From positions 1 to 54,334 of the IMG/VR virus record IMGVR_UViG_3300036855_000036: a stretch of 54,334 nt of DNA, one strand, 5' to 3'. Position 1 is the first letter of the stretch. Each line of letters starts with the position of its first letter. Below the pieces are notes generated by a model. That model worked only from the letters and a program-made list of their open reading frames with translations, was not told the DNA's origin and did no database searches. Both the position numbers and the translations under genes were made by a program. Below are positions 11,422-36,201 of this stretch, piece by piece. The DNA comes from a virus. Taxonomy: Duplodnaviria > Caudoviricetes.

Positions 11422-11422
11422 G

Positions 11423-14840: not shown

Positions 14841-14857
14841 AGCCGCAACGATAGGAA

Positions 14858-15349: not shown

Positions 15350-15353
15350 CCGC

Positions 15354-16397: not shown

Positions 16398-16407
16398 GGG
16401 AGCGAAT

Positions 16408-17750: not shown

Positions 17751-17806
17751 CGACGGACGAGTTCGACGCGCTGATCAGCTACCTGGAGTCGCGGAGCGGG
17801 GACTAG
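17618..17806 (+). CDS. -1 frameshift extension of tail assembly chaperone (gpGT-like)
   Basis: -1 frame reads YLGAFASVFGIRPWEVGRLTTDEFDALISYLE with high GC3 and has no own start. Confidence 0.7.
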   Translation, partial: GRCGGPYVRGRAPYGPGWHGYDVSRYLGAFASVFGIRPWEVGRLTTDEFDALISYLESRSGD

Positions 17807-18168: not shown

Positions 18169-18344
18169 GCCTGTCTTTCCTCGCCGGTAAGCGCTGTGGC
18201 CTGGTCATGCCAGTCGGCGGGGACGACAACGGCGGCCGGCTTCCCCCACCGCAGGATCGTGACGTGCTCGCCGCCCTGCTCGACGGCGTTGAGCAGCTCG
18301 CGCCAGTTGCGCCGCGCGTCGTCGCTGCTGATCTCTCGCTTCAT
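18165..18344 (-). CDS. Phd/YefM-family antitoxin-like protein (59 aa, not in ORF track)
   Basis: MKREISSDDARRNWRELLNAVEQGGEHVTILRWGKPAAVVVP; ATGA overlap with lipoprotein. Confidence 0.85.
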   Translation of the reverse strand: MKREISSDDARRNWRELLNAVEQGGEHVTILRWGKPAAVVVPADWHDQATALTGEERQA

Positions 18345-18358
18345 GCCCGCAGGGTACC

Positions 18359-18388
18359 ACGAACCTTACGAACCTTACGAAACTCACG
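18359..18388. repeat. 3x 9-bp tandem repeat ACGAACCTT, probable operator
   Basis: Immediately upstream of the Phd-like start. Confidence 0.6.
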
Positions 18389-18398
18389 GGAGGGGCGC

Positions 18399-24637: not shown

Positions 24638-25377
24638 GCATCCCCCAGGTCATCACCGCCGCCGCGGTCACCGCCGCCACGCTGGCCGCGTCCCCTGCCG
24701 CGAGCACTTCGCCAAGGAACGTCGTGGCCTTCGGCGACTCCCTGACCTGGGGCGCCGGGTCGGGATCGAGCAACGGCCCCGGCGTGAGCGGCCCGGCCGG
24801 GAACGGCTACCAGGGTGACAACTACCCCTCCCAGCTGGCGGCGCTGTCCGGCTGGCAGGTCACCAATCAGGGCATCAACGGCGACATGGTGACGAGCGGC
24901 AGCGTCAACGACCCGCTCAACGCGACCGTCCGGTTCGAGCAGCTCGTGCCCGCTTACCCAGCGGGGACCGTGTTCGTGGTGTGGATCGGCGTAAACGACG
25001 TCGAGCAGGCCAAGGGCGGCTCCCAGATCGTGACCGGGTACGCGCGGATGATCACCGCCGCGCACGACGCCGGGGACCTCATCTTCCTCGCCACGCTGCC
25101 GCCCATTGCCGGGCTCGCCGCCATCCGGGAGACCCAGCGGCGCAACGTGAACAACTGGGTACGCCAGGGCCACGGGCAGGACGGCACCGTTGACCTGGAG
25201 GCCGCGCTCGGCACGCCAACCGTGCTCAGCCCGCGCCTCGCCGCCAACGGGCAGACCGTCAACCCGGTCACCAGCGTCCCGCACCTCAACCCGGCCGGGT
25301 ACGCGGTCGTCGCGAACTTCGTCTACGCGAAGGTGACGCATCCGGTGACCGTCGTCCCTCCCGTGGCGTACCCGTAG
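24634..25377 (+). CDS. SGNH/GDSL esterase
   Basis: FGDSLT, NQGING, IGVND, HLNPAGY blocks. Confidence 0.85.
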   Translation: MSIPQVITAAAVTAATLAASPAASTSPRNVVAFGDSLTWGAGSGSSNGPGVSGPAGNGYQGDNYPSQLAALSGWQVTNQGINGDMVTSGSVNDPLNATVRFEQLVPAYPAGTVFVVWIGVNDVEQAKGGSQIVTGYARMITAAHDAGDLIFLATLPPIAGLAAIRETQRRNVNNWVRQGHGQDGTVDLEAALGTPTVLSPRLAANGQTVNPVTSVPHLNPAGYAVVANFVYAKVTHPVTVVPPVAYP

Positions 25378-25390
25378 TGCACGCGGTCCT

Positions 25391-25789
25391 GTGAGCAGGG
25401 TCAGGGCACTCGCGGGACGGCTGGCGCGCCGTGCCGGGCACCGCGGCGCGTTCCTGATGTTCCTCGCCGTGCTCGACTTCTGCTACGGGTACTCCCTGTG
25501 GGCCGCGCCCGCGCCGCAGCGGCAGCTTGACCTGTTCCTGCCGTGGCAGGGCTGGGCGGTTGCTTGGCTCGTCACGGGCGCCGTGTGCCTTGCCGGGGTG
25601 CCCGCCGTCCGCGACTGGTGGGCGTTCACCGCCGCGACGCTGCTGAAGGCCGCGTGGGCGGCGGTCATGGCCGACACGTGGCTGGAGCAGGGCATCCCGC
25701 GCGGCTGGGTCTCCGCCGTGATCTGGGGCGTGTTCGCGCTGACCGTCCTGGTCGTGTCCAGCTGGCCAGACGCGCCGCCCCGGCCGTGA
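25391..25789 (+). CDS. 4-TM membrane protein (lysis region)
   Basis: Four hydrophobic helices. Confidence 0.7.
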   Translation: MSRVRALAGRLARRAGHRGAFLMFLAVLDFCYGYSLWAAPAPQRQLDLFLPWQGWAVAWLVTGAVCLAGVPAVRDWWAFTAATLLKAAWAAVMADTWLEQGIPRGWVSAVIWGVFALTVLVVSSWPDAPPRP

Positions 25790-26139
25790 ACGCCTCCATC
25801 ATCGTCGAGGTACTCCTCGGCCTGCTGACCTTCGCGGTGGCGGCGGCGGCGTACTTCGCCGCGCAGCAGGCCAACCGGTCAACCGCGAAGGCCAGCACCG
25901 TCGCCGTCGACGCCGCCGCCTACGGCCGGGCGAAGCAGATCTACGAGGGAGCGCTCGACGCGCTGCAGTCCCAGACCGCCGACCTGCACGAGCAGGTCGA
26001 GGCGCTGTCCGACGAGGTGGGCCGCCTCCGCAGCGCCAACATTGAGCTGTCCGACGAGGTCGGCAGGCTCCGCAACGCGAACACCGACCTGAAGCGGAAG
26101 ATAACGGCGCTCGAGCGCCGGCCGAGAGGAACCTCCTGA
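25786..26139 (+). CDS. TM-anchored coiled-coil protein
   Basis: N-terminal TM; duplicated LSDEVGRLR.AN heptads. Confidence 0.7.
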   Translation: MNASIIVEVLLGLLTFAVAAAAYFAAQQANRSTAKASTVAVDAAAYGRAKQIYEGALDALQSQTADLHEQVEALSDEVGRLRSANIELSDEVGRLRNANTDLKRKITALERRPRGTS

Positions 26140-26417
26140 TGCCCGTCGAAACGAAGGTAAAAGCATCTACCGCCGCTGCCGCCCTGTCCGGGCTGGCGCT
26201 GTGGGCGCTGTCCCGCTACGTGTTCCGCGGTGACGTCCCCGACGTCGTGGTGTCCTGGGTGGACGCGATCATCCCGGCCGCGCTCGCGTTCGCCGCGGGC
26301 TACCTGGCTAAGCACACCGTGCGGCCCGCTGACCCGCCCGCGCCGCCCGAGATGCCGACGCCCGCCGTGCCCGTCGCGCCCGTAGTCCCGGCAGTGCCGC
26401 CCCCGGCGGCGCCCTGA
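26139..26417 (+). CDS. Holin
   Basis: VETKVKAST, two TMs, [11 protein letters not shown]. Confidence 0.75.
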
Positions 26418-26968
26418 TGGCGCTGCCCGACCTCGCGCCGCTGCACGCCCGGAAGGCCGCCCCGTTCCCGCCCGGCTACCCCTCCGGCGCTCTCACGTTC
26501 TTCAGCCCGGTCGATGACGTGCACGGCGTCCTGCTGGACCTCATCCAGTCCGCGTCAAAGTCGCTGGTTTGCGCGATGTACGGGTTCGACGATGACGAGC
26601 TCGCCGCGGCGCTGCTGGAGAAGCTCGACGACGGGCAGGTGTTCGTGCAGCTCACCCTCGACAGCTCGCAGGCCGCGGGGAAGCACGAGGCGGCGCTGCT
26701 GGCGAAGGACGCGTTCCCCTCCAACTCGGTCGCGGTCGGCCGGTCGGAGAAGGGGGCGATCATGCACATGAAGCTGCTCCTGGTAGATGGCCTGGACGTG
26801 GTGACCGGGTCGACGAACTGGTCTGGCGGCGGCGAGGGCGCGCAGGACAACCAGCTCACCGTGATCAGGGACCCGTACGTCGCCGCCGAGGCGCGCGCCC
26901 GGGTCGACATCATCCACCACCACATGCTCACCGCAGCAGCGAAAAGCCCGGGAAGGGACAGCGCTTGA
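26417..26968 (+). CDS. Phospholipase D / Nuc-family protein (single HKD)
   Basis: [32 protein letters not shown]. Confidence 0.88.
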
Positions 26969-27807
26969 GTATCCAGATCGCCTACGACTGCACCCGCGCC
27001 AACATCGGCAGCGCTCCCGCCGGGCTGCTCGCCGGGTACACCACCGGTAGCAGCGACATCCGGTGGACCGCCGCCGACTGGGCTGCCCACCCCGGCGCGG
27101 TGCGGATCGACCAGGACGCGGGTGCCTCCGACGGCACCGCCGACGTGCTCGACGTCGAGGCGGGCGCGGCCACAGTGTCCGACGTCCCCGGCTGGTCCAA
27201 GTTGGCCTTGGCGAACTTCAGGGCGAAGAAGCGCACCGGCCAGCGGACGCCACTCATCTACATGAGCCAGGTGAACGTCACCCCGGTCGCCAACGCGCTG
27301 ACCGGAGCAGGCATGGCGGACGGGTCAGTCGGCCTGTTCATCGCCAACTGGAACCTGGCCCAGGGGGAGGCGGTCGCCGAGGTGCTGGCGGCCAGCGGCC
27401 CGTTCCCGGTCTGCGGCCTCCAGTTCAAGAACGCAGGGCTGTTCGACATCGACGTGTTCTCGTCCGCGTGGCTGAACGCGCGCTCCGGGCCGCACCCGGC
27501 CCCTGCGGGACTCGGCGCGCCGCGTAACCTCGCCGTCCAGGCGGGCGACACGACGGTGCGGGTGACCCGCTGCGACCCGCCGGCGGGCATGACGCCGGAC
27601 CACTACGAGGTCAGCGTGTTCACCGGCTCCTACCCGTCCCCGGCGACGCTGGTCGCGTCCTACCCGCGCTACATGCGGGCCGCCCCGCAGCAGTTCGGCA
27701 GCCTTCAGGGCATCGCGTCCGGCACCCACATGACGCTGCGGGCCGTGGCCGTCGACGCGGCCGGGACCGCCGGGGCGTACGCCGACGTCCACTTCGAGAT
27801 GCCCTAG
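26965..27807 (+). CDS. Endolysin, GH25-like muramidase plus FN3-like domain
   Basis: AGYTTG, VLDVEAG, PLIYMS, FIANW, GLQF, DIDVF; APRNLAV FN3 start. Confidence 0.7.
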
Positions 27808-27989
27808 TGACGGCGTTCACTCACGCGGACGTCGCGGCGGCGTTCGTCGGCGGCGCGGTGGCCGGGGGGTTCCTCGGGGCGCTGTACGGGATGAGCGTCG
27901 TTCTCGCCCGGCGGGCACTGCCGGGCGCGCGGCGGCGAAGGCGGCCCGCGCTCGCGCGGACGATGCCGCTGCGAAGACACCCTGAATGA
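27807..27989 (+). CDS. Small membrane protein
   Basis: TM followed by Arg-rich tail; coupled to endolysin stop. Confidence 0.5.
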   Translation: MTAFTHADVAAAFVGGAVAGGFLGALYGMSVVLARRALPGARRRRRPALARTMPLRRHPE

Positions 27990-28047: not shown

Positions 28048-28078
28048 AAGAGGGACCGCTCAGGCGGTCCCTCTTTTT
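28048..28078. terminator. Intrinsic (likely bidirectional) terminator
   Basis: AAGAGGGACCGC-TCAG-GCGGTCCCTCTT plus T-run between convergent operons. Confidence 0.85.
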
Positions 28079-28090: not shown

Positions 28091-28501
28091 CTAGGGCTTC
28101 CACTCGGCGCGGTAGTCCGGGTGGTCGCTGTAGACGGCGGCGAGAACGCGGACGTCGGCGCATGGCCATAGGTAGCCGTTGCGGTCGTCAGTGCATTGCA
28201 CGCACCATGAAGTCTTCGGCAGCAGGTCTTTGATGGGCGAGTGTCGCTCTAGGATCGCCCGCTTGGCCTCGACCTCGCGCAGCACGCGGGCCGGGTCATG
28301 GCGGGCAAAGTGCCGCCCGGCCGACCGGTCCGGTTCAAGCCACGACCGGCCATCTTCCGATGCGTAGCGAACCCGGCCATGAGAGAACGCCTCATCGAGC
28401 CGAGCGCCACCCATGTCGTAAACGTGACCGAGCGGTGCGACCGCCTTCGCCGCCGCCTCGTCCTCATCCAGCCGCGCCTTTACGAACTCCCCGATTTCCA
28501 C
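28091..28501 (-). CDS. DUF6221-like actinophage protein
   Basis: FVKARLDEDE, RHDPARVLREVEAKRAIL, YSDHPDYRAEW. Confidence 0.8.
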   Translation of the reverse strand: MEIGEFVKARLDEDEAAAKAVAPLGHVYDMGGARLDEAFSHGRVRYASEDGRSWLEPDRSAGRHFARHDPARVLREVEAKRAILERHSPIKDLLPKTSWCVQCTDDRNGYLWPCADVRVLAAVYSDHPDYRAEWKP

Positions 28502-28670
28502 GGCCCACCTCCGTCATCCTCATGATCGCCGCGAGCACCTCCAGGTCGCCGCGCGCCACCGTCCGCTCCGCGTCGTCCAGCTCATCCCACCGCGCCAGCC
28601 GGGCGACCAGGCCGGGCGGCAGCGCGGGCCGCGCCACGTCCAGCAGCGCCGAGCAGCACGACGGGTCCAA
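28464..28670 (-). CDS. Hypothetical protein
   Basis: GGAGG SD before TTG at 28670. Confidence 0.45.
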   Translation of the reverse strand: MDPSCCSALLDVARPALPPGLVARLARWDELDDAERTVARGDLEVLAAIMRMTEVGRGNRGVRKGAAG

Positions 28671-28702
28671 CGGTCCTCCGGGGGGCGGGCGCGATTGCGC
28701 GG

Positions 28703-28921
28703 CTAAATCGTATCGCCCGGCCTCCGGTCCAGGTGCAGCCAGTCCGGGCACGCCGGGTCCAGCTTCTCCCGGCGCACCACGTACCCGCACATCACGCACA
28801 CCGCCTCAACCGGGTAATGCCACGGGAACCGCAGGTTCGCCGGCAGCCCCGTGTTCCGGCCCGTTACCGAGTACGCCGTGCCCGGCTCGATCAGCAGCTC
28901 ATGCGGGTCAGGACCCGGCAC
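28703..28921 (-). CDS. Hypothetical protein
   Basis: Operon context, CxxC. Confidence 0.55.
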   Translation of the reverse strand: MPGPDPHELLIEPGTAYSVTGRNTGLPANLRFPWHYPVEAVCVMCGYVVRREKLDPACPDWLHLDRRPGDTI

Positions 28922-29129
28922 CGGCCGCCTCGTCTCGCCGCTTTATCAGCTTGGCCAGCAGCCCGCGCATGCTCACCGACTCGACGACCGGCGTCCCCTT
29001 CGGGACCGCCCGGTAGCCGCCGAACACCCGGCTCCACTCCCACTCGGGGAACTTCTCCGCCATCGTCTCCCCGACAAGCCGCTCGTCCGCGGCGCGCTGC
29101 TCGCCTGCCTGGAATCCGGGTCCCATCAC
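28908..29129 (-). CDS. Hypothetical protein
   Basis: Operon context. Confidence 0.55.
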   Translation of the reverse strand: MMGPGFQAGEQRAADERLVGETMAEKFPEWEWSRVFGGYRAVPKGTPVVESVSMRGLLAKLIKRRDEAAGAGS

Positions 29130-29132
29130 CGC

Positions 29133-29345
29133 CTACCGCAGGCCGAGCCTGCTGAGGATGTCGCGGGACTCGTGACGGGCATCCTTCGCCGCGTCTTCGG
29201 CCGCCTTGTAGTCGCGCTCGCGGATCCGGCCGGCGCGGAGGTCCGCTGCCGCCTGCGTCATGCGCCTGTCCGCGTTCTCTATGTCGCGGATCGCCTCCAT
29301 GCCGCGCTCCGCTAGTTCCTCGTCGTTGTTGCTGAACCATGACAT
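29133..29345 (-). CDS. Hypothetical helical protein
   Basis: AAGGAG SD before ATG 29345. Confidence 0.6.
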   Translation of the reverse strand: MSWFSNNDEELAERGMEAIRDIENADRRMTQAAADLRAGRIRERDYKAAEDAAKDARHESRDILSRLGLR

Positions 29346-29346
29346 T

Positions 29347-29754
29347 TCAGTTCTCCTTGTGTTCGACGGTGCCCCTGACCAGGGGCACCCAGCTGGCATC
29401 TCCGGCGGGCTCGCCGGGGAGCGTGTGAACGTAGTGGTGGTGCTCGACGACCGACACCTTCGGCGCGAGCGCGGGACGCTCCGGGGCGGGCAGCTCATGC
29501 AGCGCCGGAGCCGGGACGATGCCCCGCGGCAGGGAACCCGGGTGCCGCGCCAGGTACACCAGGAACGCGGCGAGCGCGGCGACGACCAGAACGACGACGA
29601 CCACGGCGGCGATCAGCGCGTCGACCACAGCGGCAGCCACCGCCGCGACGGCACCCCCGGACCCGCACAGCAGCAGGAGGGCGATGACGAGCAGCGCCGG
29701 GCCGGGACTGCCGCCGACCGTCTCCCCGGTGCCCTGGAACCTGAATCTCGTCAC
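29347..29754 (-). CDS. Membrane protein (Spd-like)
   Basis: Long hydrophobic segments; GTGA overlap; downstream of traB-like gene. Confidence 0.55.
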   Translation of the reverse strand: MTRFRFQGTGETVGGSPGPALLVIALLLLCGSGGAVAAVAAAVVDALIAAVVVVVLVVAALAAFLVYLARHPGSLPRGIVPAPALHELPAPERPALAPKVSVVEHHHYVHTLPGEPAGDASWVPLVRGTVEHKEN

Positions 29755-29921
29755 CGGCTTCTCCATTCGCTGATCATCCGCATCACCAGCAGGTGCACGC
29801 GGGCCGCCCAGCCGGCGCCCAGGCGCCGCCTGCCGTCCTCGCGGAACGGGCGCCGCCACACGTACAGAAGCCGCCACGCCAGCGCGATCACGGCGAACTC
29901 GAACAGGTGCAGGATCATCAC
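29751..29921 (-). CDS. Small membrane protein (56 aa, not in ORF track)
   Basis: MILHLFEFAVIALAWRLLYVWRRPF; overlaps both neighbours by 4 nt. Confidence 0.55.
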   Translation of the reverse strand: MMILHLFEFAVIALAWRLLYVWRRPFREDGRRRLGAGWAARVHLLVMRMISEWRSR

Positions 29922-30382
29922 CCGTCACCACCTCCCTCGGAGCCCGCGGCGACCCCGTCGACGAACCCCTCCTGGTACTTGACGCACCCGTACCGGGTGC
30001 ACTCGGGGTCCGCGCAGGTGCGCGGGTTGTGCGGCGACGCGCGGGGCTTCCGTGCCTTCGCCGCGGCAGCCGCCCTGGCGCGGCGCTCGCGGTCCGCTGC
30101 CTTGCGGCGCCTGGCGGCCTCGGCCCGAATGCGCTTGCGGCGCTCCCGCCGCGCCGTCGCCTTGGCCGCGCGCTCGGCGGCCCTGCGCCGCCTCGCCCAG
30201 TCCGTCCGCACCGTGCAGGTATGCGTGAACGGGTTGCGGACCTCTTTCTGGCAGGTGCGGCACTGGAACCGGACGGCGGGTCGCAGCCGGTCCCGTTTGC
30301 CGCGCTTCCCTGGGCAGGCGTGGTAGCGCCCGCGCGGCTTCCCGCAGGAACCGCACGCCAGCACCGTAAGCCGGAGCTTCAT
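29918..30382 (-). CDS. Zn-binding Arg-rich protein
   Basis: CGSCG, CRTC, HxC motifs. Confidence 0.6.
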   Translation of the reverse strand: MKLRLTVLACGSCGKPRGRYHACPGKRGKRDRLRPAVRFQCRTCQKEVRNPFTHTCTVRTDWARRRRAAERAAKATARRERRKRIRAEAARRRKAADRERRARAAAAAKARKPRASPHNPRTCADPECTRYGCVKYQEGFVDGVAAGSEGGGDG

Positions 30383-30534
30383 CAACCCCCCATGGGGTGC
30401 CTTCAAGGGAGGGCCGGGCGTCACTTTCAGGGTGCACGTCACTGCTGGTCAGGGCGCCGGGCCAGTGACCGCGATGACGCTGCCTCGCATTTCCGCAGGT
30501 CACCGCAGTGACAGGACGGTCACTCTCCAGAGCG

Positions 30535-32655
30535 CTAGACAAGGGCACGGTCACCCTCCCTCGCCGCCGTGACAGCCTCCCGGTAACAGCCGCGTGCACT
30601 CTCACCGCCGCGGGTCACCGACCTTGACGGGACGCCGAGGTCGCGCAGCTGCGCCGTGATCGCGCCCGGAGTGATGTCCGCCCACCGCTCGCCCAGGTGG
30701 GCGTCGAGCCGGTCGGCCAGCTCGGTCCAGTGCAGCGCGCTGTCGTCGCCGAACACCTCGAGGACGTCGGCCAGGACGTCGCGGTGATCGTCGGCCCACT
30801 CCTCGCCGATCGCCTCGCCGGTGAGCGTGCCGGCCGCCTCGCGGTACTTCCGGGCCGCCTTGATGATCGCCTCGGCGTCCTCGGCGTCGGCCAGGTAGGC
30901 GCGGACAGTCGGGGTGTGCTCGAGGTCGGGGTGACCCCACAGGATCGAGATGCCCCGGTACTTCTTGCCGTCCGGCAGGGTGGAGGCGTCGAAGCCCTCC
31001 TCGGCGCCGCCGCCGAGCACCGCCTCGGACACGTGCCGGTTACCGCACTTCAGCGCGATCCGCACCTCGTGGTTATCGCGGTAGCGGGTGAACAGTTCCT
31101 TGATGGCCTGAGTCGACCCGACCCCCGCGGGCTTCTGCAGGGAGGTCGCCAGGATGACGCCGAGCGCCGGGCCGGCCGACCGGATGTTGGACAGGCTCTG
31201 CGCGATCTTCTTGCTGAGTTCCGTGTCGGCCAGCTCGTAGTAGAAGTACGCCTCCTCCATCACCAGCAGCCAGAGGAACAGCTTCTTCGGGTACTTGCGG
31301 CACAGCTCCTCGGTGAGCTTCCCCTCCGGGCACTCCGCGGTGCTCAGGGTCGACAGGAAGTTCCCGGTGTCCTCCATGTGGCGCTCGATCGCCTGGAGCT
31401 CGGCGAGCAGCTTCTCGCCCGGGTCGCCGTCGCGGGTCGGCCGCGTACCGAAGACGGTCCGGTGCGCGATCAGCTGGAACGGCCGCCAGTCCGGCTTCGA
31501 CGACCCGTCCGCGATGGTGATCCGGACGTGCGGGTCGAGCGCGGCGAACAGGGCCAGCGCCCGGGCGGTGAACGTCTTCCCCTTGCGGGGCTGGGAGCCG
31601 ATCAGGAACGACACCCACAGCAGGGAGATCCGCACCCGGTCGCCGAACTGGTCGAGGCCCATGGGCCACAGGTCGCGCCACAGGTTCCGCGACTTGAGGT
31701 CGAGCAGCGGGGTGCGGCCGGCGGACTTGGCCAGCGGGTCCTCGTCGGCGATCCACAGGGTGTGGCGCCGCTCCGACGTGTCGTCGGGAGTCAGGAAGAG
31801 CTGTGACACCTTGACGTCCAGGCCGGACGCGAGCGCGGCCAGCGAGCCCATGACCTTGGCGAACGTCCCGCCGTAGGGCAGGTACACGGGAACGAACGTG
31901 CCGGTGCCGCGCTTGTCGCGCGCCATGACGCCCAGCCCCAGCTCCTGCCCCTCGGTGCCGGGCTTGCACTGCCCGGCCGCGGCATAGGCGCGGACGACAG
32001 TGTCCTGGCTGACCACCCGGACCACCGGCTCCGTCATTGACGGGGTGATGATCGGCCGCCCCTCCGGACCCCCGGCACGCGCCGCGAGGACGGCCAGCAC
32101 GGGCACTATGCCGCACCACGCCCACGGCTCGATCCTGGTCACGAGCACGCCGGCGACCAGCGCGGCAAGCGCGCAGGCGCTGATGACGATGCCCCGCTCG
32201 CCGCGCACCGTCCGCTGGTGCCCGTGCTGCCTGCGGTACTCGCCGCCGTCGTTCTCGATCGCCGCGACGAGGCGCGCGCCGGTTCCCTCGGTGACCCACC
32301 ACCAGCGGCGCAGCCGCTCGGCCAGGACCAGCGTGCCCCACAGGGCCCACAGGACCGTCTTGAGCAGGTACCAGGGTGAGCGCAGCGCGTGGAACGACGC
32401 CTCGTACCGCAGCTGCTCGGCGTGCCGCCCTGTCTCCGTGCGGAGTGCCTCACGGGAGCGCAGCACGGGCGGCACGACCGGGCGCCGGTCATCGCGCGTC
32501 GCGGGCAGCCCGAAGCCGCCGGGCGGGTGAACCGGCTGCGGGTCGTCCTGATCGTCGTCGAGGACGTGCTCGAACCGCTCGCGCGGAGGTGCGTCCTGGC
32601 TGGCGTCCGCGGACGGGAACGGGATAACCCGGCCGTCGCCGCTGTCACTCACCAT
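30535..32655 (-). CDS. traB: FtsK/SpoIIIE-family TraB-like conjugative DNA translocase
   Basis: N-terminal TMs, LASGLDV, LWIADEDP, Walker A GSQPRKGKT, Walker B LLVMEE, GPALGVIL...QKP, C-terminal wHTH-like region. Confidence 0.85.
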   Translation of the reverse strand: MVSDSGDGRVIPFPSADASQDAPPRERFEHVLDDDQDDPQPVHPPGGFGLPATRDDRRPVVPPVLRSREALRTETGRHAEQLRYEASFHALRSPWYLLKTVLWALWGTLVLAERLRRWWWVTEGTGARLVAAIENDGGEYRRQHGHQRTVRGERGIVISACALAALVAGVLVTRIEPWAWCGIVPVLAVLAARAGGPEGRPIITPSMTEPVVRVVSQDTVVRAYAAAGQCKPGTEGQELGLGVMARDKRGTGTFVPVYLPYGGTFAKVMGSLAALASGLDVKVSQLFLTPDDTSERRHTLWIADEDPLAKSAGRTPLLDLKSRNLWRDLWPMGLDQFGDRVRISLLWVSFLIGSQPRKGKTFTARALALFAALDPHVRITIADGSSKPDWRPFQLIAHRTVFGTRPTRDGDPGEKLLAELQAIERHMEDTGNFLSTLSTAECPEGKLTEELCRKYPKKLFLWLLVMEEAYFYYELADTELSKKIAQSLSNIRSAGPALGVILATSLQKPAGVGSTQAIKELFTRYRDNHEVRIALKCGNRHVSEAVLGGGAEEGFDASTLPDGKKYRGISILWGHPDLEHTPTVRAYLADAEDAEAIIKAARKYREAAGTLTGEAIGEEWADDHRDVLADVLEVFGDDSALHWTELADRLDAHLGERWADITPGAITAQLRDLGVPSRSVTRGGESARGCYREAVTAAREGDRALV

Positions 32656-32855
32656 GCGAACCGCCTCCTGACGGGCTGGATGCCCCACCCGCACTCGGCC
32701 GCCAGGATCGCGATCCCGAGCAAGAGCGCGGCGAGCAGTACGACGATGACGACCGCGGCGACCGTGATCACGACCGCGGCGACCGCGAGCAGGACGTGAA
32801 TGCCAGCCACCGCCAGGACCGCGCCGAGGATGCCGAGGACGGCGTTGCCGGTCAT
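32649..32855 (-). CDS. Small membrane protein
   Basis: Almost entirely hydrophobic; overlaps neighbours. Confidence 0.6.
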   Translation of the reverse strand: MTGNAVLGILGAVLAVAGIHVLLAVAAVVITVAAVVIVVLLAALLLGIAILAAECGWGIQPVRRRFAW

Positions 32856-33571
32856 GACGCGCTCCCGTTCGGCGACGGGTCCGGCTCGGGCTCGCCGATG
32901 CGGTGCAGGCGCGGGACTGCCTCGAACGGCGCGGGCTCAGGGATCAGCTCGGCGCGCAGTTTCGACGCCACCGGGCGCGTCAGCCCAAACCGCGTCACAA
33001 GCTGGTTCTGCGACAGCGGGTTGCCCGCCGTGATCGTCGCGGCCAGCGCCGCCTTCGCCGCACTTTCGGCGTCGGTGGCAACTGCCGGTTTTGGCAGCTC
33101 AGGCGCCGTTTCCGGTTCCAGCTCCGGCTTGTCCTCCTGCTCGGCTTCGTCAGCTCGCAGCAGGTGCGTCAGCCCGGCGCCGAAACCGAGCACGATCACC
33201 GGCAGGCAGGACACCAGCACCGTGACCGGCCACGGCGCCCGGTGCGCATGCGCGGCGGCCAGCAGGTGAAAGATGACCTGCCCCGTCATGCCGAGCGCCA
33301 GCGCGCCGACAGCGGACCGGCGGGCGAACCTGCGGGCGACGTCCGGGATGGCCGACGGGCGCATCCACACGCCGAGCGCGTAGGCGCCGTAGGCTTCGAC
33401 GCCGACCGGCAGCGTGATCGCCGTGTTCAGGTGCCAGGGGACGATCCCGGGCAGCGGCTGGACGAGGCCGAAGCCGCACATGCCGCCGAGTCCGACCCAC
33501 CCTGACCAGATCGCGACGGCGGCCGGGGCGGCAATGAAGATCAGCGGCCAGCGCCGCACCGGGGCGCTCAT
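32852..33571 (-). CDS. Spd-like multi-pass membrane protein with C-terminal HTH-like tail
   Basis: 4 TMs, LPVGVEAY, VSCLPVIVLG, LSQNQLVTRFGLTR; upstream of traB. Confidence 0.7.
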   Translation of the reverse strand: MSAPVRRWPLIFIAAPAAVAIWSGWVGLGGMCGFGLVQPLPGIVPWHLNTAITLPVGVEAYGAYALGVWMRPSAIPDVARRFARRSAVGALALGMTGQVIFHLLAAAHAHRAPWPVTVLVSCLPVIVLGFGAGLTHLLRADEAEQEDKPELEPETAPELPKPAVATDAESAAKAALAATITAGNPLSQNQLVTRFGLTRPVASKLRAELIPEPAPFEAVPRLHRIGEPEPDPSPNGSAS

Positions 33572-33843
33572 TCCTGCCCCGTCCGGTGCCAGTAGTCGAG
33601 CTCGCCGATGATGTGCCAGCTGATGACCGCGGCCACCGGGCGCAGCCACCATGGCACCGCGGCGGCGGCCTCGTAAGACTCGCGGTGCATGCGCGACGGG
33701 GTTTCCCAGCCGTCGCCGCCGGCGACGTGGTCCGCGTAGCTGGCGATGGCGTCCTCGCACAGGGCGCGGCGGGCGCGGGCGAAGCGGCGCAGCGCGGCAA
33801 GCGGGCTAGCGGCTGGCGGGGAGGTGACTGTACGGTTCTTCAC
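33568..33843 (-). CDS. Hypothetical protein (first gene of transfer operon)
   Basis: SD before GTG 33843; ATGA overlap. Confidence 0.55.
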   Translation of the reverse strand: MKNRTVTSPPAASPLAALRRFARARRALCEDAIASYADHVAGGDGWETPSRMHRESYEAAAAVPWWLRPVAAVISWHIIGELDYWHRTGQE

Positions 33844-33952
33844 GGGCCTCTTCCTGGTGAGATCAGGTTGGGGTGAGGCTTCGGCCTCCGGGCCGTCGCA
33901 GGTGTTTGCGCACCGCGGCGGCCCGCCCCATTTCGGGCGGTTGTCAAGGGCT

Positions 33953-33998
33953 AATGTACGCGTGCTTTGCAAAGGCTTGCAAGGCATGCCAAGGCTTA
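33953..33998. promoter_or_regulatory. Leftward promoter and ~10-bp periodic operator repeats
   Basis: TTGCAAAGGC-TTGCAAGGCA-TGCCAAGGCT; minus-strand TTGCAA-18-TACATT. Confidence 0.5.
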
Positions 33999-34040
33999 CC
34001 GGATCTTTCCGCAGGTCAGGGAGGCTTTAACATGCCCTGC

Positions 34041-34295
34041 ATGGCACTATCCCGTCCTGACCTGCGCCGTTCATCGCCTGTCCCGCTCAAGCAGCAGATC
34101 GTGGACCACATCGCCGGCGCCGTGGAGCGCGGCGACCTCCGGCCGGGGGACAAGCTGCCAGCCGGCCGCGAGCTCGCCGAGGAGTGGGAGGTCGGCTACT
34201 CGACGATCAACGACGCCATGAAGCTGCTCGCCGCCCGCGGCGTGCTGGTCGCCGCGATGGGCAAGGGCACGTTCGTCGCCGAGCGTCGCGAGTAG
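34041..34295 (+). CDS. GntR-family wHTH regulator (KorA/KorSA-like)
   Basis: QQIVDHI, LRPGDKLP, RELAEEW, GKGTFV; divergent from transfer operon. Confidence 0.88.
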   Translation: MALSRPDLRRSSPVPLKQQIVDHIAGAVERGDLRPGDKLPAGRELAEEWEVGYSTINDAMKLLAARGVLVAAMGKGTFVAERRE

Positions 34296-34307: not shown

Positions 34308-34670
34308 CTACTCCGCCGCGCGCCGGGCGAGAGTCTCCTCAGACATGCGGCGGGCAAGCCGGACCATGTCCTCGTCCGTGTACCCGAACCTGGCCTTGAG
34401 GTCCGCTATGACCCCGCCCAGGAAATCGAACATGGACTGCGGCGGCCAGCCGAGCCCCTCTTCCTCGCGCCACGCTCGGTACTCCTCCGGCGTGAAGTCG
34501 GACTTCTCCATGTTGCAGACCTTGCATGCCGGCGCCAGGTTGCCCCGGTCGTCGGTGCCGCCGCGGCTGCGCGGCATGATGTGATCCACCTGCGTTGGAA
34601 TCGGGTCGCCGCAATAGGAGCACGGGCCAGAGGTCAGGACTTCGATGCGCGTAGCTTGAGAAATTGCCAA
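34308..34670 (-). CDS. HNH endonuclease (McrA-like)
   Basis: [26 protein letters not shown]; TTG 34670 after GAAAGGA. Confidence 0.85.
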
Positions 34671-34688
34671 CTGAATTCGATTCCTTTC

Positions 34689-34742
34689 ATATCTGTTAGA
34701 GGTAAAACATGGAGCCGCCCATGTTCGCACTCTAACAGGTAT
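34689..34742. other. Putative attP site
   Basis: 54-bp imperfect inverted repeat (CTGTTAGAG/CTCTAACAG and AACATGG/CCATGTT) centred on CC 34715-16, just upstream of the integrase. Confidence 0.75.
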
Positions 34743-34779
34743 CATCGGAGCGTGGTCACAGCAGGTAATGGTTGCGCTC

Positions 34780-36201
34780 ATGCGCCCCGCGAGTAACAGC
34801 GAGCCCGTCCAGGCGGCGATCTACTGCCGGATCAGCCTGGCGGTACTGAAAGACACGACGAAGGTCGACGAGCAGGAAGCGCAGTGCCGCGAGGTGGCCC
34901 GGCGCCTCGGCTGGGAGGTGACCGCCGTCTTCAAGGACAACTCCCGCTCGGCGTGGCAGCGCAACCGCAAGCGCGACGGGTGGGACGCGATGCTGGAAGG
35001 GCTGCGCGTCGGACGGTTCGGGGCCATCGTTTCCTACTGGGGCGACCGGATCGTCCGCCAGCCGCGCGACCTGGAGGACCTGCTCGACCTTCGTGAGGGC
35101 CGCAAGATCAGCGTGGCGTCGGTCATGGGCCGGTACGACTTCAACAACAAGGACCACCGGATGATGATGCGGTGGGAGGTGGGCCGGGCCTGCAACGAGT
35201 CGGACACCATCTCCGAGCGCGTCATCAACCATCATGAGCTGCGCCGCGCGAGGGGACTTGCGCGCCCCGGCGGCCGCGGCGGCCGGGCGTTCGGCTTCGA
35301 GACGGACGGCATGACGCACGTCGAGGCCGAGTGCGCGGTCATCCGCGAGATGGCCGTGCGCGTGCTGCGCGGCGAGACAGTGGGGTCTATCTCCCGCGAC
35401 GTGTCGGCCCGCGGGTGGCTGACCCCGGCCGGGAACGAGTTCGGGTACGGCACGGTGCGCAAGATGCTCGCCCGGCCGCGGTACGCGGGCCTGATGCCCG
35501 ACGGCGAGAGCAAGGCGGCCTGGGCGTCCGTCCTCGAGCGCGACACCTGGGAGCGCGTCCGCCTGCTGCTCGACGCCAAGGCCGAGCAGTTCGGGTACGC
35601 GACCAACGCGCGCCGCTGGCTGCTGTCGGGAATCGCCGTGTGCGGCGCGGTCTCCGGCGGGGAAGTCTGCTGCACGCCGCTGATCATCAAGCCGAGCAAG
35701 GGGCGCGGCCGCCAGGAGTACCAGCAGGGGTACGCCTGCCCGCGCAAGGGGTGCGGGAAGGTGTACCGCTCCGCACCGCACCTGGACGCCTACGTCGGTG
35801 CCCGCGTGGTCGGCCTGCTGAATAACCCGCTCAACCCCGCGGCGCAGGTCCCGAACGCCCCGGAGCCGGCCGCCGAGTGGGCGGACCTGTCGGCCGAGCG
35901 GGCGGAGACGGAGAGAATTGCCCGGGACTACCGCGCTTCGGCCGGCATGCTGAGCATCCTGGCGGCGCGGCTCGACAGCATCGACGCCCGCATGGCGCAG
36001 CTGCGCGAGCGGGAGACGAGTGATTCGCGGTCCCGCCTGCTTGAGCAGTACCGGGGCATCACCCGCGACCAGTGGGAGAACGAGCTCCCGCTTGACGTCC
36101 GCCGCGCCCTGGTCGCCGCGTGCTTCACCGTGACGGTGCTGCCCGCCTCCGGCCGCGGCCCCGGCTTCCGGGTGCAGGACGTCCGCCTGGACCCGGCGTA
36201 G
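34780..36201 (+). CDS. int: Large serine recombinase (integrase)
   Basis: IYCRIS catalytic Ser, DNSRSA, DRIVR, recombinase domain, Zn ribbon, coiled coil. Confidence 0.93.

What the first reader, a model, noticed from the sequence alone, without database searches (positions are those of the whole stretch)
28091..34295. A tailed phage carrying an actinomycete TraB/Spd/Kor conjugation module
Seen: an intact, tightly coupled leftward operon with an Spd-like membrane protein, small TM proteins and a ~700-aa membrane-anchored FtsK ATPase, divergent from a GntR regulator and next to attP/int, within a genome with full virion genes. No rolling-circle Rep is visible. Established: Streptomyces plasmids and AICEs (pSAM2, pIJ101, pSVH1) move dsDNA with one TraB translocase, spread via Spd proteins and are controlled by GntR-type Kor repressors. 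Inference: a phage-AICE hybrid with two transmission routes, virions and hypha-to-hypha transfer of the excised circle, bypassing receptor-based resistance.
Basis: partly seen in the sequence, partly recalled or inferred. Interest (0 to 1): 0.88.

Follow-up and report, generated by a model that had tools for sequence, protein, structure and literature searches.

The report
Temperate actinophage with conjugative DNA pump
A complete temperate tailed phage of a filamentous soil actinomycete carries the DNA pump, its docking repeats and the membrane partners that actinomycete integrative plasmids use to push double-stranded DNA between hyphae, so the phage genome can probably spread without virus particles; this has not been tested.

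Summary
The window is a circularly assembled 54.2-kb temperate siphophage: split TerL, portal, protease, capsid, tape measure, lysis genes, serine integrase, cI/Cro, Xis, RecET and an iteron replicon. Between the lysis genes and the integrase lies a leftward, translationally coupled operon (28091-33843) with a divergent short GntR gene. Its 706/719-aa protein is 32% identical to pSVH1 TraB (E 7e-34) and unlike chromosomal FtsK. In bacterial genomes this family sits in classical AICEs: Prim-Pol in 58 of 80 loci, against 0 of 24 viral contigs. Of those 24 viral contigs, 16-18 carry a large terminase. New here: nine copies of a GTGAC-core motif straddle the traB stop, where pSVH1 has its clt. 94% of 97 related loci have such an array (6% of control windows). 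The motif changes with the TraB lineage and with one residue of its C-terminal segment. Phage copies keep the ATPase motifs and show dN/dS of 0.07-0.5. The cassette is therefore an old, selected, probably working TraB-clt transfer module on a phage that uses its own integrase and replicon. Virion-free spread is inferred, not shown. Precedents exist: plasmid-phage pZL12 and FtsK-like genes in cultured actinophages.

The parts
28048..28075 (.). Hairpin with a perfect 12-bp stem and 4-nt loop. It lies between the rightward holin-like ORF (ends 27989) and the leftward operon (last stop 28091). Likely a two-way terminator marking the distal end of the module.
   Evidence: inverted repeat I1; the simple terminator scan did not list it
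28091..28501 (-). DUF6221 protein, 136 aa, last gene of the leftward block; separated by 201 nt from the gene before it.
   Evidence: Pfam PF19730 7.5e-30; phrog_6326; homologues downstream of traB in L007 and L013
28703..29345 (-). Three small soluble ORFs: 72 aa (28703-28921), 73 aa (28908-29129) and 70 aa (29133-29345). No known family.
   Evidence: GC3 0.89-0.90 for the first two; spacings +3 and -14 nt; the 72-aa ORF is 84.5% identical in L020; no Pfam, PHROG or NCBIfam hit
29347..29921 (-). Two small membrane proteins: 139 aa (29347-29766, hydrophobic 16-77) and a doubtful 56 aa (29751-29921).
   Evidence: hydropathy and spacing; homologues after traB in L006, L015 and L020
29918..30442 (-). 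Cys-rich, Arg-rich protein of 174 aa (154 aa from the ATG at 30382), encoded directly after the clt-like array. Conserved partner of this TraB family.
   Evidence: tblastn hits in 7 of 24 viral and 11 of 80 genome loci, always just downstream of traB; no family hit
30420..30618 (.). clt-like array: nine copies of a motif with core GTGAC (about cRGTGACsg). Six copies are in the traB sense and three inverted. The array spans the last ~85 nt of traB, the spacer and the first bases of the next ORF.
   Evidence: densest GTGAC cluster of the genome, 8 in 200 nt against a mean of 0.66; sites listed; the same method recovers the pSVH1 repeats after its traB stop; controls
30535..32694 (-). TraB-family membrane-anchored dsDNA translocase, 719 aa (706 aa from the ATG at 32655).
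   Evidence: BLASTP to pSVH1 TraB 32%/427 aa, E 7e-34; phrog_1358 1.7e-15; Walker A Lys and Walker B Glu conserved 24/24 in viral copies; Atlas structure rows match PF01580; no Pfam hit
32649..32855 (-). 68-aa protein that is almost entirely hydrophobic, overlapping traB by 7 nt.
   Evidence: 84% identical in L015 and present before traB in L006 and L020
32852..33571 (-). 239-aa polytopic membrane protein (three hydrophobic segments at the 1.6 cut-off) with a hydrophilic C-terminal part. It holds the position that a conserved membrane protein holds in AICEs. Possibly a distant DUF2637 relative.
   Evidence: start from the ATGA overlap with the upstream ORF; membrane domain 50-69% identical to the gene upstream of traB in 8 viral and 23 genome loci; DUF2637 only as an Atlas lead; no BLASTP similarity to SpdB2 or a DUF2637 protein
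33568..33843 (-). First gene of the operon, 91 aa, no family.
   Evidence: reading frame, GTG start and GGAAGAGG upstream read; GC3 frame switch; no Pfam hit
33953..33995 (.). AT-richer divergent promoter region with adjacent palindromes (CTTTGCAAAG, CTTGCAAG, GCATGC). Candidate GntR operator.
   Evidence: I2, I4, I6; function inferred
34032..34295 (+). Short GntR-family regulator, 87 aa, winged helix only, divergent from the operon.
   Evidence: Pfam GntR 5.9e-16; RBS and ATG at 34032; 86% identical in L015; homologues in 5 viral and 26 genome loci
34308..34781 (-). HNH endonuclease between the GntR gene and the integrase gene.
   Evidence: Pfam HNH 6.5e-13
34768..36201 (+). Large serine integrase of the phage.
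   Evidence: Resolvase 1.4e-18 and Recombinase 1e-8; phrog_95 4.6e-64
381..27989 (+). Virion and lysis block: split TerL, portal, S78 protease, HK97-type capsid, adaptor, major tail, tape measure with SLT domain, minor tail proteins, GDSL lipase, PLD-like protein, holin-like ORF.
   Evidence: PHROGs; Pfam Phage_portal 5.5e-31 and Phage_capsid 1.5e-36; capsid 33% identical to Gordonia phage capsids
36684..54334 (+). Immunity, recombination and replication block: cI-like (36684-37100, minus strand), Cro-like, Xis, WhiB, exonuclease, RecT, initiator with 11-bp iterons, primase/helicase, DNA methylase, HNH genes.

Best explanation
The window is a complete temperate siphophage of a mycelial actinomycete, probably Trebonia (Streptosporangiales). 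[quoted passage not shown]

Proposed mechanism:
1. The short GntR protein represses the divergent operon at the palindromes in the shared promoter region.
2. When the operon is on, the membrane-anchored TraB ATPase assembles as a ring on the nine GTGAC-core repeats that straddle its own stop codon. These repeats mark the phage DNA in cis.
3. TraB pumps the double-stranded, excised or replicating phage circle through the hyphal wall or septal cross-walls, helped by the co-transcribed membrane proteins.
4. In the new compartment or mycelium the phage's own iteron replicon and serine integrase establish it.

Shown here:
- the identity and integrity of the parts;
- their AICE origin;
- the cis array and its co-variation with the TraB C-terminal segment;
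- purifying selection;
- recurrence in many phage genomes.

Inferred:
- ring formation and clt binding;
- GntR control;
- actual transfer;
- whether transfer goes between mycelia (conjugation) or mainly within one mycelium after infection or lysogenisation.
For: 1. A real phage, in one piece. The contig ends repeat over 127 nt and IMG/VR classes the record as having direct terminal repeats. All virion modules are present.

2. TraB identity. The protein is 32% identical over 427 aa to the studied pSVH1 TraB, E 7e-34, with Walker A and B aligned. Against a chromosomal FtsK the best BLASTP E-value is 1.8. 43 plasmid records match, 40 of them Streptomyces.

3. AICE origin.
- 6 of 6 sampled genome loci have Prim-Pol plus a helicase-like Rep partner. 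2 of the 6 also have NUDIX and 2 a tyrosine integrase at the Pfam cut-off used. No phage genes were found in any of them.
- By tblastn, Prim-Pol is present in 58 of 80 genome loci and 0 of 24 viral loci.

4. Recurrence in phages.
- 24 IMG/VR contigs carry the family.
- 14 of 24 have a phrog_9 TerL. Of the other 10, two more pass Pfam Terminase_6N and two match weakly.
- The order tail/lysis, cassette, GntR, integrase/immunity is repeated in L011, L012, L013, L015 and L020.

5. Few, old captures. The TraB tree needs only 4 changes between the AICE and phage contexts. That count rests on 24 phage rows and 62 AICE rows; 16 rows were unlabelled.

6. The cis site.
- The GTGAC array is described.
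- The method recovers the pSVH1 repeats 16-114 nt after its traB stop.
- 94% of 97 loci reach p<1e-5 at the traB 3' end, against 6% of 4976 control windows.
- Array geometry is identical in AICE L083 and phage L009, and the motif differs by lineage.
- In one search's table, all 24 rows with the CGAC-type motif have Ala or Lys at the second residue after a conserved C-terminal Gly. 50 of 55 rows with the CTAC-type motif have Val, Thr, Asn or Arg there. The switch occurs within sister groups, including the phage pair L011/L016 (counted by hand).

7. Selection. dN/dS is 0.07-0.33 for the six closest phage pairs and 0.30-0.53 for four more distant pairs. The Walker A Lys, Walker B Glu, Gln520, Arg539 and Asp540 are conserved in 24 of 24 viral copies.

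8. Established knowledge.
- TraB alone drives dsDNA transfer by binding 8-bp repeats in clt through its C-terminal winged helix (passages in PMC4170104 and PMC3583192).
- In pWTY27, clt covers 16 bp inside traA plus 159 bp after it, with 7-bp repeats (PMC3583192, abstract and passages).
- Spd membrane proteins and TraB direct intramycelial spreading, under the GntR-type regulator TraR (PMC4447253, abstract).
Against: - No experiment and no expression data are available.
- Pfam FtsK_SpoIIIE does not match the protein or any of 26 family members at E<=1. A family profile finds no solved FtsK. hhalign against three chromosomal FtsK proteins gives only E 0.055. The ATPase fold therefore rests on the PHROG hit, the pSVH1 alignment and an Atlas lead.
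- The C-terminal winged helix could not be modelled.
- The membrane partners have no detectable similarity to any studied Spd protein.
- The GntR protein lacks an effector domain, so the signal that would switch the operon on is unknown.
- There is no Pif-type NUDIX gene, so donor-donor control as in pSAM2 is absent.
- In the window's own genome the traB 3' window ranks third of 145 windows in the 6-mer test, behind the ori iterons and a window at 11458.
- Excision of a prophage normally goes with lytic growth, so a non-lytic excised state is an extra assumption.
- CheckV rates the record 77% complete.
Confidence: 0.6

Rival explanations
1. The cassette serves only inside one mycelium. After a single compartment is infected or lysogenised, TraB and the membrane proteins distribute phage genomes across cross-walls and into spores, as a spreading or segregational-stability function. 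There is no transfer between separate mycelia.
For: - Spd/TraB complexes direct intramycelial spreading (PMC4447253, abstract).
- Spreading also acts as a stability function (PMC4170104, discussion passages).
- The phage already has virions for transfer between cells.
- Phage WhiB and FtsK-like genes are discussed in the literature as tools to handle host development (PMC10117723 and PMC13587820, passages).
- The sequence evidence fits this reading as well as it fits conjugation.
Against: In plasmids and AICEs the same TraB performs both steps, and nothing in the sequence separates them. This is a narrower version of the best explanation rather than a contradiction of it.
Confidence: 0.2
2. 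The cassette acts on other DNA, not on the phage. It would be a lysogenic-conversion or competition function: mobilising host chromosome through clt-like sites, hijacking or blocking resident AICEs that use a related TraB-clt pair, or excluding incoming DNA.
For: - The cassette lies in the accessory region between the lysis and integrase genes and is transcribed leftward under its own regulator.
- TraB mobilises chromosomal markers through clt-like sequences (passages in PMC4170104 and PMC3218068).
- Closely related phages carry different TraB-clt specificities, as expected under conflict.
Against: The recognition array is kept in cis next to traB in nearly every phage copy and co-varies with the protein. 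That is what a self-transfer system needs, and an exclusion device would not need it.
Confidence: 0.1
3. The cassette is a decaying remnant of an AICE that once inserted into the phage and has no function for it.
For: - AICE replication, integrase and NUDIX genes are missing, as they would be after decay.
- There is no Pfam match to the ATPase domain.
Against: - All reading frames are intact and translationally coupled.
- dN/dS is well below 1 and the catalytic residues are conserved 24/24.
- No flanking att-like repeats were found.
- The phage clades are deep, with only 4 context changes on the tree.
- 0 of 24 viral loci keep Prim-Pol, so the trimmed form is the stable state.
Confidence: 0.06
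4. The element is an extrachromosomal plasmid-prophage of the pZL12 type, and the TraB cassette is simply its plasmid transfer system.
For: - The assembly is circular.
- pZL12 combines phage-particle genes, ParAB and a tra locus (passages in PMC4487206 and PMC3583192).
Against: - No ParA/ParB or plasmid Rep was found among the 88 ORFs scanned.
- A large serine integrase, Xis and a cI/Cro switch are present.
- Relatives are called proviruses inside chromosomes (L008 is identical to the genome locus L076).
- The portal has no actinomycete plasmid relatives among 9 plasmid records matched.
Confidence: 0.04

Closest known systems
TraB-clt-Spd system of Streptomyces conjugative plasmids (pSVH1; also pWTY27 TraA-clt)
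   Same: - Membrane-anchored FtsK-like ATPase, 32% identical to pSVH1 TraB.
- An array of short repeats starts inside or just after the 3' end of the gene (PMC3583192).
- Co-transcribed small and polytopic membrane proteins.
- A divergent GntR-family regulator (PMC4447253, abstract).
   Different: - The carrier is a tailed phage, not a plasmid.
- The motif is GTGAC-core rather than GACCCGGA.
- The membrane proteins are unrelated in sequence to SpdB2.
- The GntR protein has 87 aa against 252 aa for TraR.
- The family escapes Pfam PF01580.
AICEs with Prim-Pol/RepAM-type replication in Micromonosporaceae, Streptosporangiales and Kribbella (the modules defined in PMC3218068 and PMC2440964)
   Same: - Same TraB family, 43-52% identity by tblastn.
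- Same upstream membrane-protein domain.
- Same downstream Cys/Arg-rich protein.
- Short GntR and the same clt geometry.
   Different: The window lacks Prim-Pol, the DUF3631/DUF3987/AAA_25 Rep partner, NUDIX and a tyrosine integrase. It has a full virion, lysis and immunity gene set.
Streptomyces plasmid-phage pZL12/phiZL12 (Zhong et al. 2010, J Bacteriol 192:3747). The paper itself is not held. I saw only passages citing it in PMC4487206 and PMC3583192; the rest is recalled.
   Same: One element has both phage-particle genes and a conjugal tra locus that needs a major tra gene plus two adjacent genes.
   Different: - pZL12 is a roughly 90-kb autonomous plasmid-prophage with ParAB.
- The window is a 54-kb integrating phage with a serine integrase and no partition genes.
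- Whether pZL12's tra gene belongs to this family was not tested here.
FtsK-like DNA translocases annotated in cultured actinophages (Mycobacterium phages such as Baka, Wanda and Courthouse; Thermobifida phage P1312 ORF63; Streptomyces phages Jaresh and AndoPrime)
   Same: - Phage-borne FtsK/TraB-like ATPases. pSVH1 TraB matches 87 phage records at E<=1e-3.
- In P1312 the gene is leftward and lies near a serine integrase.
   Different: - They belong to a different family. The window protein finds no record among 50,697 phage records even at E<=1, and its comparison with P1312 ORF63 gives E 0.11.
- Their authors propose DNA segregation or manipulation of host development, not transfer (PMC4569894, PMC10117723, PMC13587820, passages).
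- No clt was reported in the passages I saw.
Phage-plasmids (P1, N15, VP882 and others; review PMC12282955, passages)
   Same: Mosaics of phage and plasmid functions that exchange genes with both worlds.
   Different: Phage-plasmids move as virions and borrow plasmid replication and partition. This element integrates like a normal prophage and borrows the plasmid transfer function instead.

Membership tests
TraB/Tra dsDNA translocase of actinomycete plasmids and AICEs | Sequence homology to an experimentally studied TraB | tested here: met
   32% identity over 427 aa to pSVH1 TraB, E 7e-34; tblastn 2e-19 in the plasmid collection
TraB/Tra dsDNA translocase of actinomycete plasmids and AICEs | FtsK/SpoIIIE-type ATPase domain with Walker A and B | tested here: inconclusive
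   - Pfam PF01580 is absent in 0 of 26 members at E<=1 and does not find the family member in genome G025.
- hhalign against FtsK gives E 0.055.
- In favour: phrog_1358 1.7e-15, motifs aligned and conserved, and Atlas structure rows that name PF01580 (a lead).
TraB/Tra dsDNA translocase of actinomycete plasmids and AICEs | N-terminal membrane anchor | tested here: met
   Kyte-Doolittle segment at residues 152-176 scores 2.44. This is a hydropathy scan only, not a topology predictor.
TraB/Tra dsDNA translocase of actinomycete plasmids and AICEs | C-terminal winged helix that reads the repeats | tested here: inconclusive
- One 53%-identical homologue carries Pfam FtsK_gamma (P0059).
- An Atlas cluster has FtsK_gamma in 26% of members.
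- A C-terminal residue co-varies with the repeat motif.
TraB/Tra dsDNA translocase of actinomycete plasmids and AICEs | Cognate clt: clustered short repeats in cis at or next to the gene | tested here: met
TraB/Tra dsDNA translocase of actinomycete plasmids and AICEs | Hexameric pore, ATP-driven DNA transfer | not testable with these tools
   Needs biochemistry and mating assays.
AICE (Int + Rep + Tra as defined in PMC3218068) | AICE-type replication protein (RepSA, RepAM/DUF3631 or Prim-Pol) | tested here: not met
   None among the 88 ORFs scanned with Pfam. Replication is by a phage-type iteron initiator and a primase/helicase.
AICE (Int + Rep + Tra as defined in PMC3218068) | Integrase and Tra present | tested here: met
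   Serine integrase and TraB. The integrase sits in the phage immunity region.
AICE (Int + Rep + Tra as defined in PMC3218068) | NUDIX (Pif) immunity gene, found in most AICEs | tested here: not met
   No NUDIX hit. By tblastn, NUDIX is present in 15 of 80 genome loci and 1 of 24 viral loci.
Temperate tailed phage (Caudoviricetes) | Terminase, portal, protease, capsid, tail and tape measure, lysis genes, integrase, repressor switch | tested here: met
Spd spreading proteins | Similarity to a studied Spd protein (SpdB2 of pSVH1) | tested here: not met
   Best BLASTP E-value 0.81. Spd proteins of different plasmids are themselves unrelated (PMC4170104, passage), so only position and membrane topology can be compared.
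DUF2637 membrane proteins | Pfam PF10935 match | tested here: not met
   No Pfam hit. Best BLASTP E-value against a DUF2637 protein is 0.18. Atlas feature score 0.89 and structure TM 0.41 are leads only.
Kor/TraR-type GntR repressor | GntR winged helix, encoded divergently from the tra/spd operon | tested here: met
Kor/TraR-type GntR repressor | Full-length protein with a C-terminal effector domain | tested here: not met
   87 aa, against 252 aa for the pSVH1 regulator.
Phage-plasmid | Plasmid replication and partition genes, no integrase | tested here: not met
   No ParA/ParB or plasmid Rep was found, and an integrase and Xis are present.

The most novel reading that the evidence does not exclude
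A whole class of temperate actinophages has two routes of transmission: virions, and TraB-driven passage of the double-stranded phage circle through hyphal walls and cross-walls. The TraB-clt pair would behave as an exchangeable specificity cassette, because phages with 77-84% identical capsids carry three different TraB lineages with three different repeat motifs. This specificity would work like a mating or incompatibility type that decides which co-resident elements can use which pump. If so, receptor loss would not stop these phages. The boundary between prophage and integrative conjugative element would then be a matter of which modules are switched on.
Probability: 0.4. Interest if true: 0.85.

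Novelty: new variant of a known kind. Interest (0 to 1): 0.72.

Why it matters
- Escape from receptor-based resistance. If the cassette works, a tailed phage can colonise a mycelium, and perhaps neighbouring mycelia, without an extracellular stage. That would change how phage spread, lysogenisation and resistance are understood in filamentous, antibiotic-producing actinomycetes.
- A natural series for protein-DNA recognition. About 100 TraB-clt pairs have a conserved array geometry and lineage-specific motifs, and one C-terminal residue tracks one base pair of the motif. This makes recognition by FtsK-like pumps directly testable.
- Undetected AICE translocases. A large family of AICE translocases is invisible to the Pfam model used to find AICEs.
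- Direction of module exchange. Exchange between AICEs and phages also runs from AICE to phage, not only from phage to AICE.

Tried and rejected
No model, fold search or hexamer test was made.
I stopped that step. The counts given are read by hand.
- Close DNA relatives among cultured phages: none.
- The TraB family among 50,697 phage records: none with the window protein at E<=1e-5 or E<=1, and none with L019's copy at E<=1e-3.
- A single-protein scan of viral contigs found nothing. The alignment-based scan was needed.
- NCBIfam gave nothing for the module proteins.
- A PDB sequence search with the family profile gave only chance-level hits.
- P1312 ORF63 is not the same family.
- The sigma-70 promoter scan found 0 sites, and its one terminator-like site is below the shuffle expectation.
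- No tRNA genes.
- No att-like direct repeats bracket the cassette.
- attP was not located.
- Sequencing runs: no RNA holder is listed.
- Laid contigs of four soil metagenomes are short.
  - None spans the whole stretch.
  - X2 and X3 hold identical pieces of 176-588 nt.
  - X4 and X8 hold about 95% similar 2.7-3.0-kb contigs over traB.
  - One X4 contig joins 27807 to 28027, skipping 219 nt.
  - I draw no conclusion on habitat, expression or junctions from this.
- The first control script crashed on an overflow and was corrected.
- The papers PMC3117642 (Vogelmann 2011) and PMC2897331 (pZL12) are not held. What I say about them comes from passages in papers that cite them, or from recall.
- Literature searches for a phage-borne TraB with clt found none. 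pZL12 was found only after an earlier finding of this scan named it.
- Complex prediction, the search of protein representatives and the metagenome contig scan were not used.

Full report
**What the window is.** The window is an IMG/VR virus record of 54,334 bp. Its first and last 127 nt are identical, so the sequence closes into a 54,207-bp circle. CheckV rates it 77% complete. G+C is about 70%, so I chose reading frames by third-position GC.

PHROGs and Pfam give a full siphophage gene set:
- large terminase in two ORFs (381-1340 and 1315-1857);
- portal (Phage_portal 5.5e-31);
- S78 protease;
- HK97-type capsid (Phage_capsid 1.5e-36, 33% identical to Gordonia phage capsids);
- adaptor, major tail protein, tape measure with an SLT domain, and minor tail proteins;
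- a lysis region;
- on the far side of the cassette: a large serine integrase, cI- and Cro-like repressors, Xis, WhiB, exonuclease and RecT;
- an initiator gene that contains 11-bp iterons, a primase/helicase and a DNA methylase.

Pfam found no rolling-circle Rep, Prim-Pol, RepAM, ParA/ParB or NUDIX among the 88 ORFs scanned. The best protein match to the big cassette protein is a 98%-identical protein of a Trebonia sp. MAG. A 4.1-kb Trebonia MAG contig carries a 95%-identical copy (L026). The host is therefore probably Trebonia, order Streptosporangiales. That Trebonia grows as a mycelium is recalled, not checked.

**The cassette.** The leftward genes run from 33843 to 28091 in this order:
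1. a 91-aa ORF;
2. a 239-aa polytopic membrane protein;
3. a 68-aa hydrophobic protein;
4. the 706/719-aa ATPase;
5. a spacer;
6. a Cys- and Arg-rich 154/174-aa protein;
7. two small membrane proteins;
8. three small soluble proteins;
9. after 201 nt, a DUF6221 protein.

Overlaps of 4, 4 and 7 nt link the genes before the ATPase gene. Spacings of -4, -16, +1, +3 and -14 nt link those after it. A hairpin with a perfect 12-bp stem at 28048-28075 closes the block against the rightward lysis genes.

Divergent from the operon, across an AT-richer region with adjacent palindromes (33953-33995), lies an 87-aa GntR-family protein that is a winged helix only. An HNH gene and then the integrase gene follow.

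**What the big protein is.**
- Pfam and NCBIfam do not recognise it. Pfam FtsK_SpoIIIE matches none of 26 family members even at E<=1.
- A PHROG FtsK/SpoIIIE-like family matches at 1.7e-15.
- tblastn finds 43 plasmid records, 40 of them Streptomyces. One is pSVH1, where the match lies on the gene of the studied TraB.
- Direct BLASTP gives 32% identity over 427 aa, E 7e-34, with the Walker A and B motifs in register.
- Against a chromosomal FtsK of an actinomycete that also carries a family member, the best E-value is 1.8. Profile-profile comparison with three FtsK proteins gives E 0.055. A family profile finds no solved FtsK.
- The ESM Atlas holds a model of this protein whose neighbours include clusters named by PF01580. 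I treat this as a lead only.

The protein therefore belongs with the plasmid/AICE TraB proteins, not with cell-division FtsK. Its family is too divergent for the Pfam model.

**Where the family lives.** The protein database holds at least 568 relatives among the 8,000 candidates scored. They come from Actinomadura, Nonomuraea, Dactylosporangium, Actinoplanes, Micromonospora, Kribbella and others.

A scan of one genome per species found 148 loci, of which 80 were kept. I annotated six full-length loci by Pfam. All six have Prim-Pol and a helicase-like Rep partner a few kb after the gene. At the cut-off used, two also show NUDIX and two a tyrosine integrase. Host genes flank them and no phage genes are present. 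This is the classical AICE layout (PMC3218068 and PMC2440964, passages).

By tblastn with these markers, the 80 genome loci and the 24 viral loci compare as follows:

| Marker | Genome loci (of 80) | Viral loci (of 24) |
|---|---|---|
| Prim-Pol | 58 | 0 |
| Rep partner | 63 | 0 |
| Tyrosine integrase | 49 | 2 |

Of the 16 genome loci without either Rep marker, 10 are cut less than 2 kb after the gene.

**The family in phages.** The same scan of IMG/VR found 24 contigs, at 41-59% identity.
- 14 of 24 records carry a phrog_9 large terminase. All three records with terminal repeats are among them.
- Of the other 10, two pass Pfam Terminase_6N and two match weakly. The remaining six are mostly fragments rated 15-60% complete. 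The exception is G009 (96% complete), which has a capsid-like match.
- Homologues of the window's tail, lysis, integrase, repressor, Xis, exonuclease and RecT genes flank the cassette, in the same order as in the window, in L011, L012, L013, L015 and L020. L020, from a terminally repeated 53-kb record, has a GH25 lysin 2.5 kb after the gene.

This excludes a chimeric assembly and a one-off insertion.

Two records have capsids 84% (G004) and 77% (G001) identical to the window's. Their TraB proteins are only 45% and 44% identical and fall in other clades. In G004 the GntR and the 68-aa protein next to TraB are 86% and 84% identical. The traB-clt core is therefore exchanged as a cassette within one phage lineage.

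**Phylogeny.** I built a maximum-likelihood tree of 103 rows: the window, 100 loci and two Streptomyces plasmid outgroups. Four loci with only a partial best match were left out. It was a quick search with SH-aLRT support only.

The viral rows fall into a few clades interleaved with AICE clades. The window groups with L026 and L002, inside a set of 9 rows (7 viral) with support 98. That set is sister to Thermomonosporaceae AICEs.

I then labelled rows by context: 24 phage rows, 62 AICE rows with a Rep marker, and 16 rows unlabelled. Only 4 changes of context are needed on the tree. The genome rows that sit inside viral clades lack Rep markers (L052, L055, L066, L076). One of them, L076, is identical to a provirus, L008. 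Long branches meet in places (the tool's own warning), so the exact number of captures is uncertain.

**The cis site.** This is the main addition to the finding.
- On the traB strand, nine copies of a motif with core GTGAC lie between 30420 and 30618. Six are direct and three inverted. They run from about 85 nt before the traB stop, through the spacer, into the next ORF.
- This is the densest GTGAC cluster in the genome: 8 in 200 nt against a mean of 0.66.
- Positive control: the same 6-mer enrichment test on pSVH1 returns CCCGGA, with 8 copies. Five exact copies of the 8-bp repeat that I recalled as the TraB recognition sequence lie 16-114 nt after the traB stop.
- Applied to all loci, 94% of 97 traB 3' windows reach p<1e-5, against 6% of 4,976 other windows in the same loci. 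The median -log10 p is 8.2 against 3.15.
- The traB window is the single best window of its locus in only 35 of 97 loci. In the window's own genome it ranks third of 145, behind the ori iterons.
- The motif depends on the lineage: CCGCTACC, CCGTTACC, CCGCGACC, GCGGCAC, CGGTAAC or RGTGACC. Offsets and orientations of the copies are the same in AICE L083, AICE L057 and phage L009.

In the alignment, a C-terminal segment of TraB tracks the motif (counts by hand):
- All 24 rows with the CGAC-type motif have Ala or Lys at the second residue after a conserved Gly.
- 50 of 55 rows with the CTAC-type motif have Val, Thr, Asn or Arg there. The five exceptions all belong to one divergent phage subclade, where the alignment register is doubtful.
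- The three rows with the TTAC-type motif share a third pattern.
- The switch occurs between close relatives: the phage sisters L011/L016, the AICE sisters L027/L046, and L035 against its clade.

A formal contrast test was not run (see Tried and rejected). This matches what is established. TraB reads 8-bp repeats in clt through a helix of its C-terminal winged helix (PMC3583192 and PMC4170104, passages citing Vogelmann 2011, which I could not read). The clt of pWTY27 spans 16 bp inside traA plus the next 159 bp (PMC3583192, abstract and passages).

**Selection.** Nei-Gojobori dN/dS for ten pairs of phage-borne genes is 0.07-0.53. For the six closest pairs it is 0.07-0.33. Strong GC3 bias makes these values, if anything, overestimates. 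The Walker A Lys, Walker B Glu and three further invariant residues are kept in 24 of 24 viral copies, the same as in 77 of 77 genome copies.

**The partners.**
- The membrane domain of the 239-aa protein is 50-69% identical to the gene just upstream of traB in 8 viral and 23 genome loci, out of 85 upstream neighbours examined.
- It has no BLASTP similarity to SpdB2 of pSVH1 or to a DUF2637 protein of a Streptomyces AICE-like plasmid. DUF2637 appears only as an Atlas lead.
- The Cys/Arg-rich protein recurs just downstream of traB in 3 viral and 11 genome neighbours of 80 by BLASTP. By tblastn it recurs in 7 viral and 11 genome loci.

'Spd-like' is thus a statement about position and topology. 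Spd proteins of different plasmids are themselves unrelated (PMC4170104, passage).

**Mechanism and rivals.** The best-supported reading is a working TraB-clt system that acts on the phage's own DNA. The phage supplies replication and integration, and the short GntR protein acts as repressor. I cannot tell transfer between mycelia from spreading within one mycelium.

A role against other elements or in chromosome mobilisation is possible. It is less likely because the array is kept in cis and co-evolves with the protein. The decaying-remnant reading and the plasmid-prophage reading are contradicted by the results listed under rival explanations.

**Comparison with what is known.**
- FtsK-like genes in actinophages are known as annotations, with proposed roles in segregation or development (PMC4569894, PMC10117723 and PMC13587820, passages).
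- pSVH1 TraB weakly matches 87 cultured-phage records, 51 of them Mycobacterium phages annotated 'FtsK-like DNA translocase'.
- The window's family matches none of the cultured phages. P1312 ORF63 belongs to another family.
- The plasmid-phage pZL12 combines phage-particle genes with a conjugal tra locus (PMC4487206 and PMC3583192, passages; the original paper is not held).
- Earlier notes of this scan describe similar modules in other actinophages and in cyanophages. One of them pointed me to pZL12.
- My searches found no paper that describes a clt array or TraB-clt co-variation in phages, or cassette exchange among related phages. The library lacks most subscription journals.

**Verdict.** I class the finding as a new variant of a known kind. 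It is backed by unusually strong comparative evidence and offers a tractable experimental system.

Noticed in passing
window 381-1340 and 1315-1857: The large terminase is split into two ORFs in different frames with a 26-nt overlap. They match PHROG profile positions 65-466 and 478-667. The same split is seen in the two closest relatives, G001 and G004, as two separate matches. It looks like a conserved split or programmed frameshift rather than a sequencing error.
   Followed up: partly
window 45423-45677: At least six 11-bp iterons (core CTTCGCGAGAC) lie inside the replication-initiator gene (45005-46003), followed by four tandem 7-mers GAGCAGG at 45650-45677. This is probably the phage origin.
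   Followed up: no
window 54032-54092: The second-densest GTGACC cluster of the genome lies here: 4 copies in 200 nt, including GTGACCAC three times. It sits between the last HNH gene (53576-53950) and the contig junction, upstream of the terminase. It has the same core as the clt motif. It could be a packaging site or a second TraB site.
   Followed up: no
window 7951-8718, 34308-34781, 38028-38771, 43400-43705, 53576-53950: Five HNH or endonuclease genes are scattered through the genome. One interrupts the head gene block and one lies between the GntR and integrase genes.
   Followed up: no
window 9649-10365, 10538-11095, 15354-16397: Glycosyltransferase-like and methyltransferase-like genes lie inside the virion gene block. 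This may indicate virion glycosylation.
   Followed up: no
loci L083, L057, L009, L033 (first ~170 nt after the traB stop): AICEs of non-Streptomyces actinomycetes carry clt-like arrays of 7-12 copies with a fixed geometry and lineage-specific 8-mers. [quoted passage not shown] This large AICE Tra family is also missed by Pfam PF01580, the model used to find AICEs.
   Followed up: partly
window 29572-29635 and 32724-32787: The two small hydrophobic proteins flanking traB share a 37-nt similar stretch (78%) that encodes a Val/Ala-rich helix. They may be paralogues (D1).
   Followed up: no
window 24601-25377, 26417-26968, 50742-51137: A GDSL lipase, a PLD-like protein and a RyR-domain protein are encoded in the phage. 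The first two lie between the tail and lysis genes.
   Followed up: no
window 27807-28027: In one soil metagenome a contig of a related phage joins 27807 to 28027, skipping the 219 nt that hold the holin-like ORF (run X4, depth 76).
   Followed up: no
L114 (Thermobifida phage P1312) 6485-8527: A cultured phage has a different FtsK/TraB-like gene, leftward and about 2.5 kb from its serine integrase gene. It is weakly similar to pSVH1 TraB (E 0.006). Its last ~70 residues align with the window protein's C-terminus (31%, E 0.11). I did not look for a repeat array there.
   Followed up: partly
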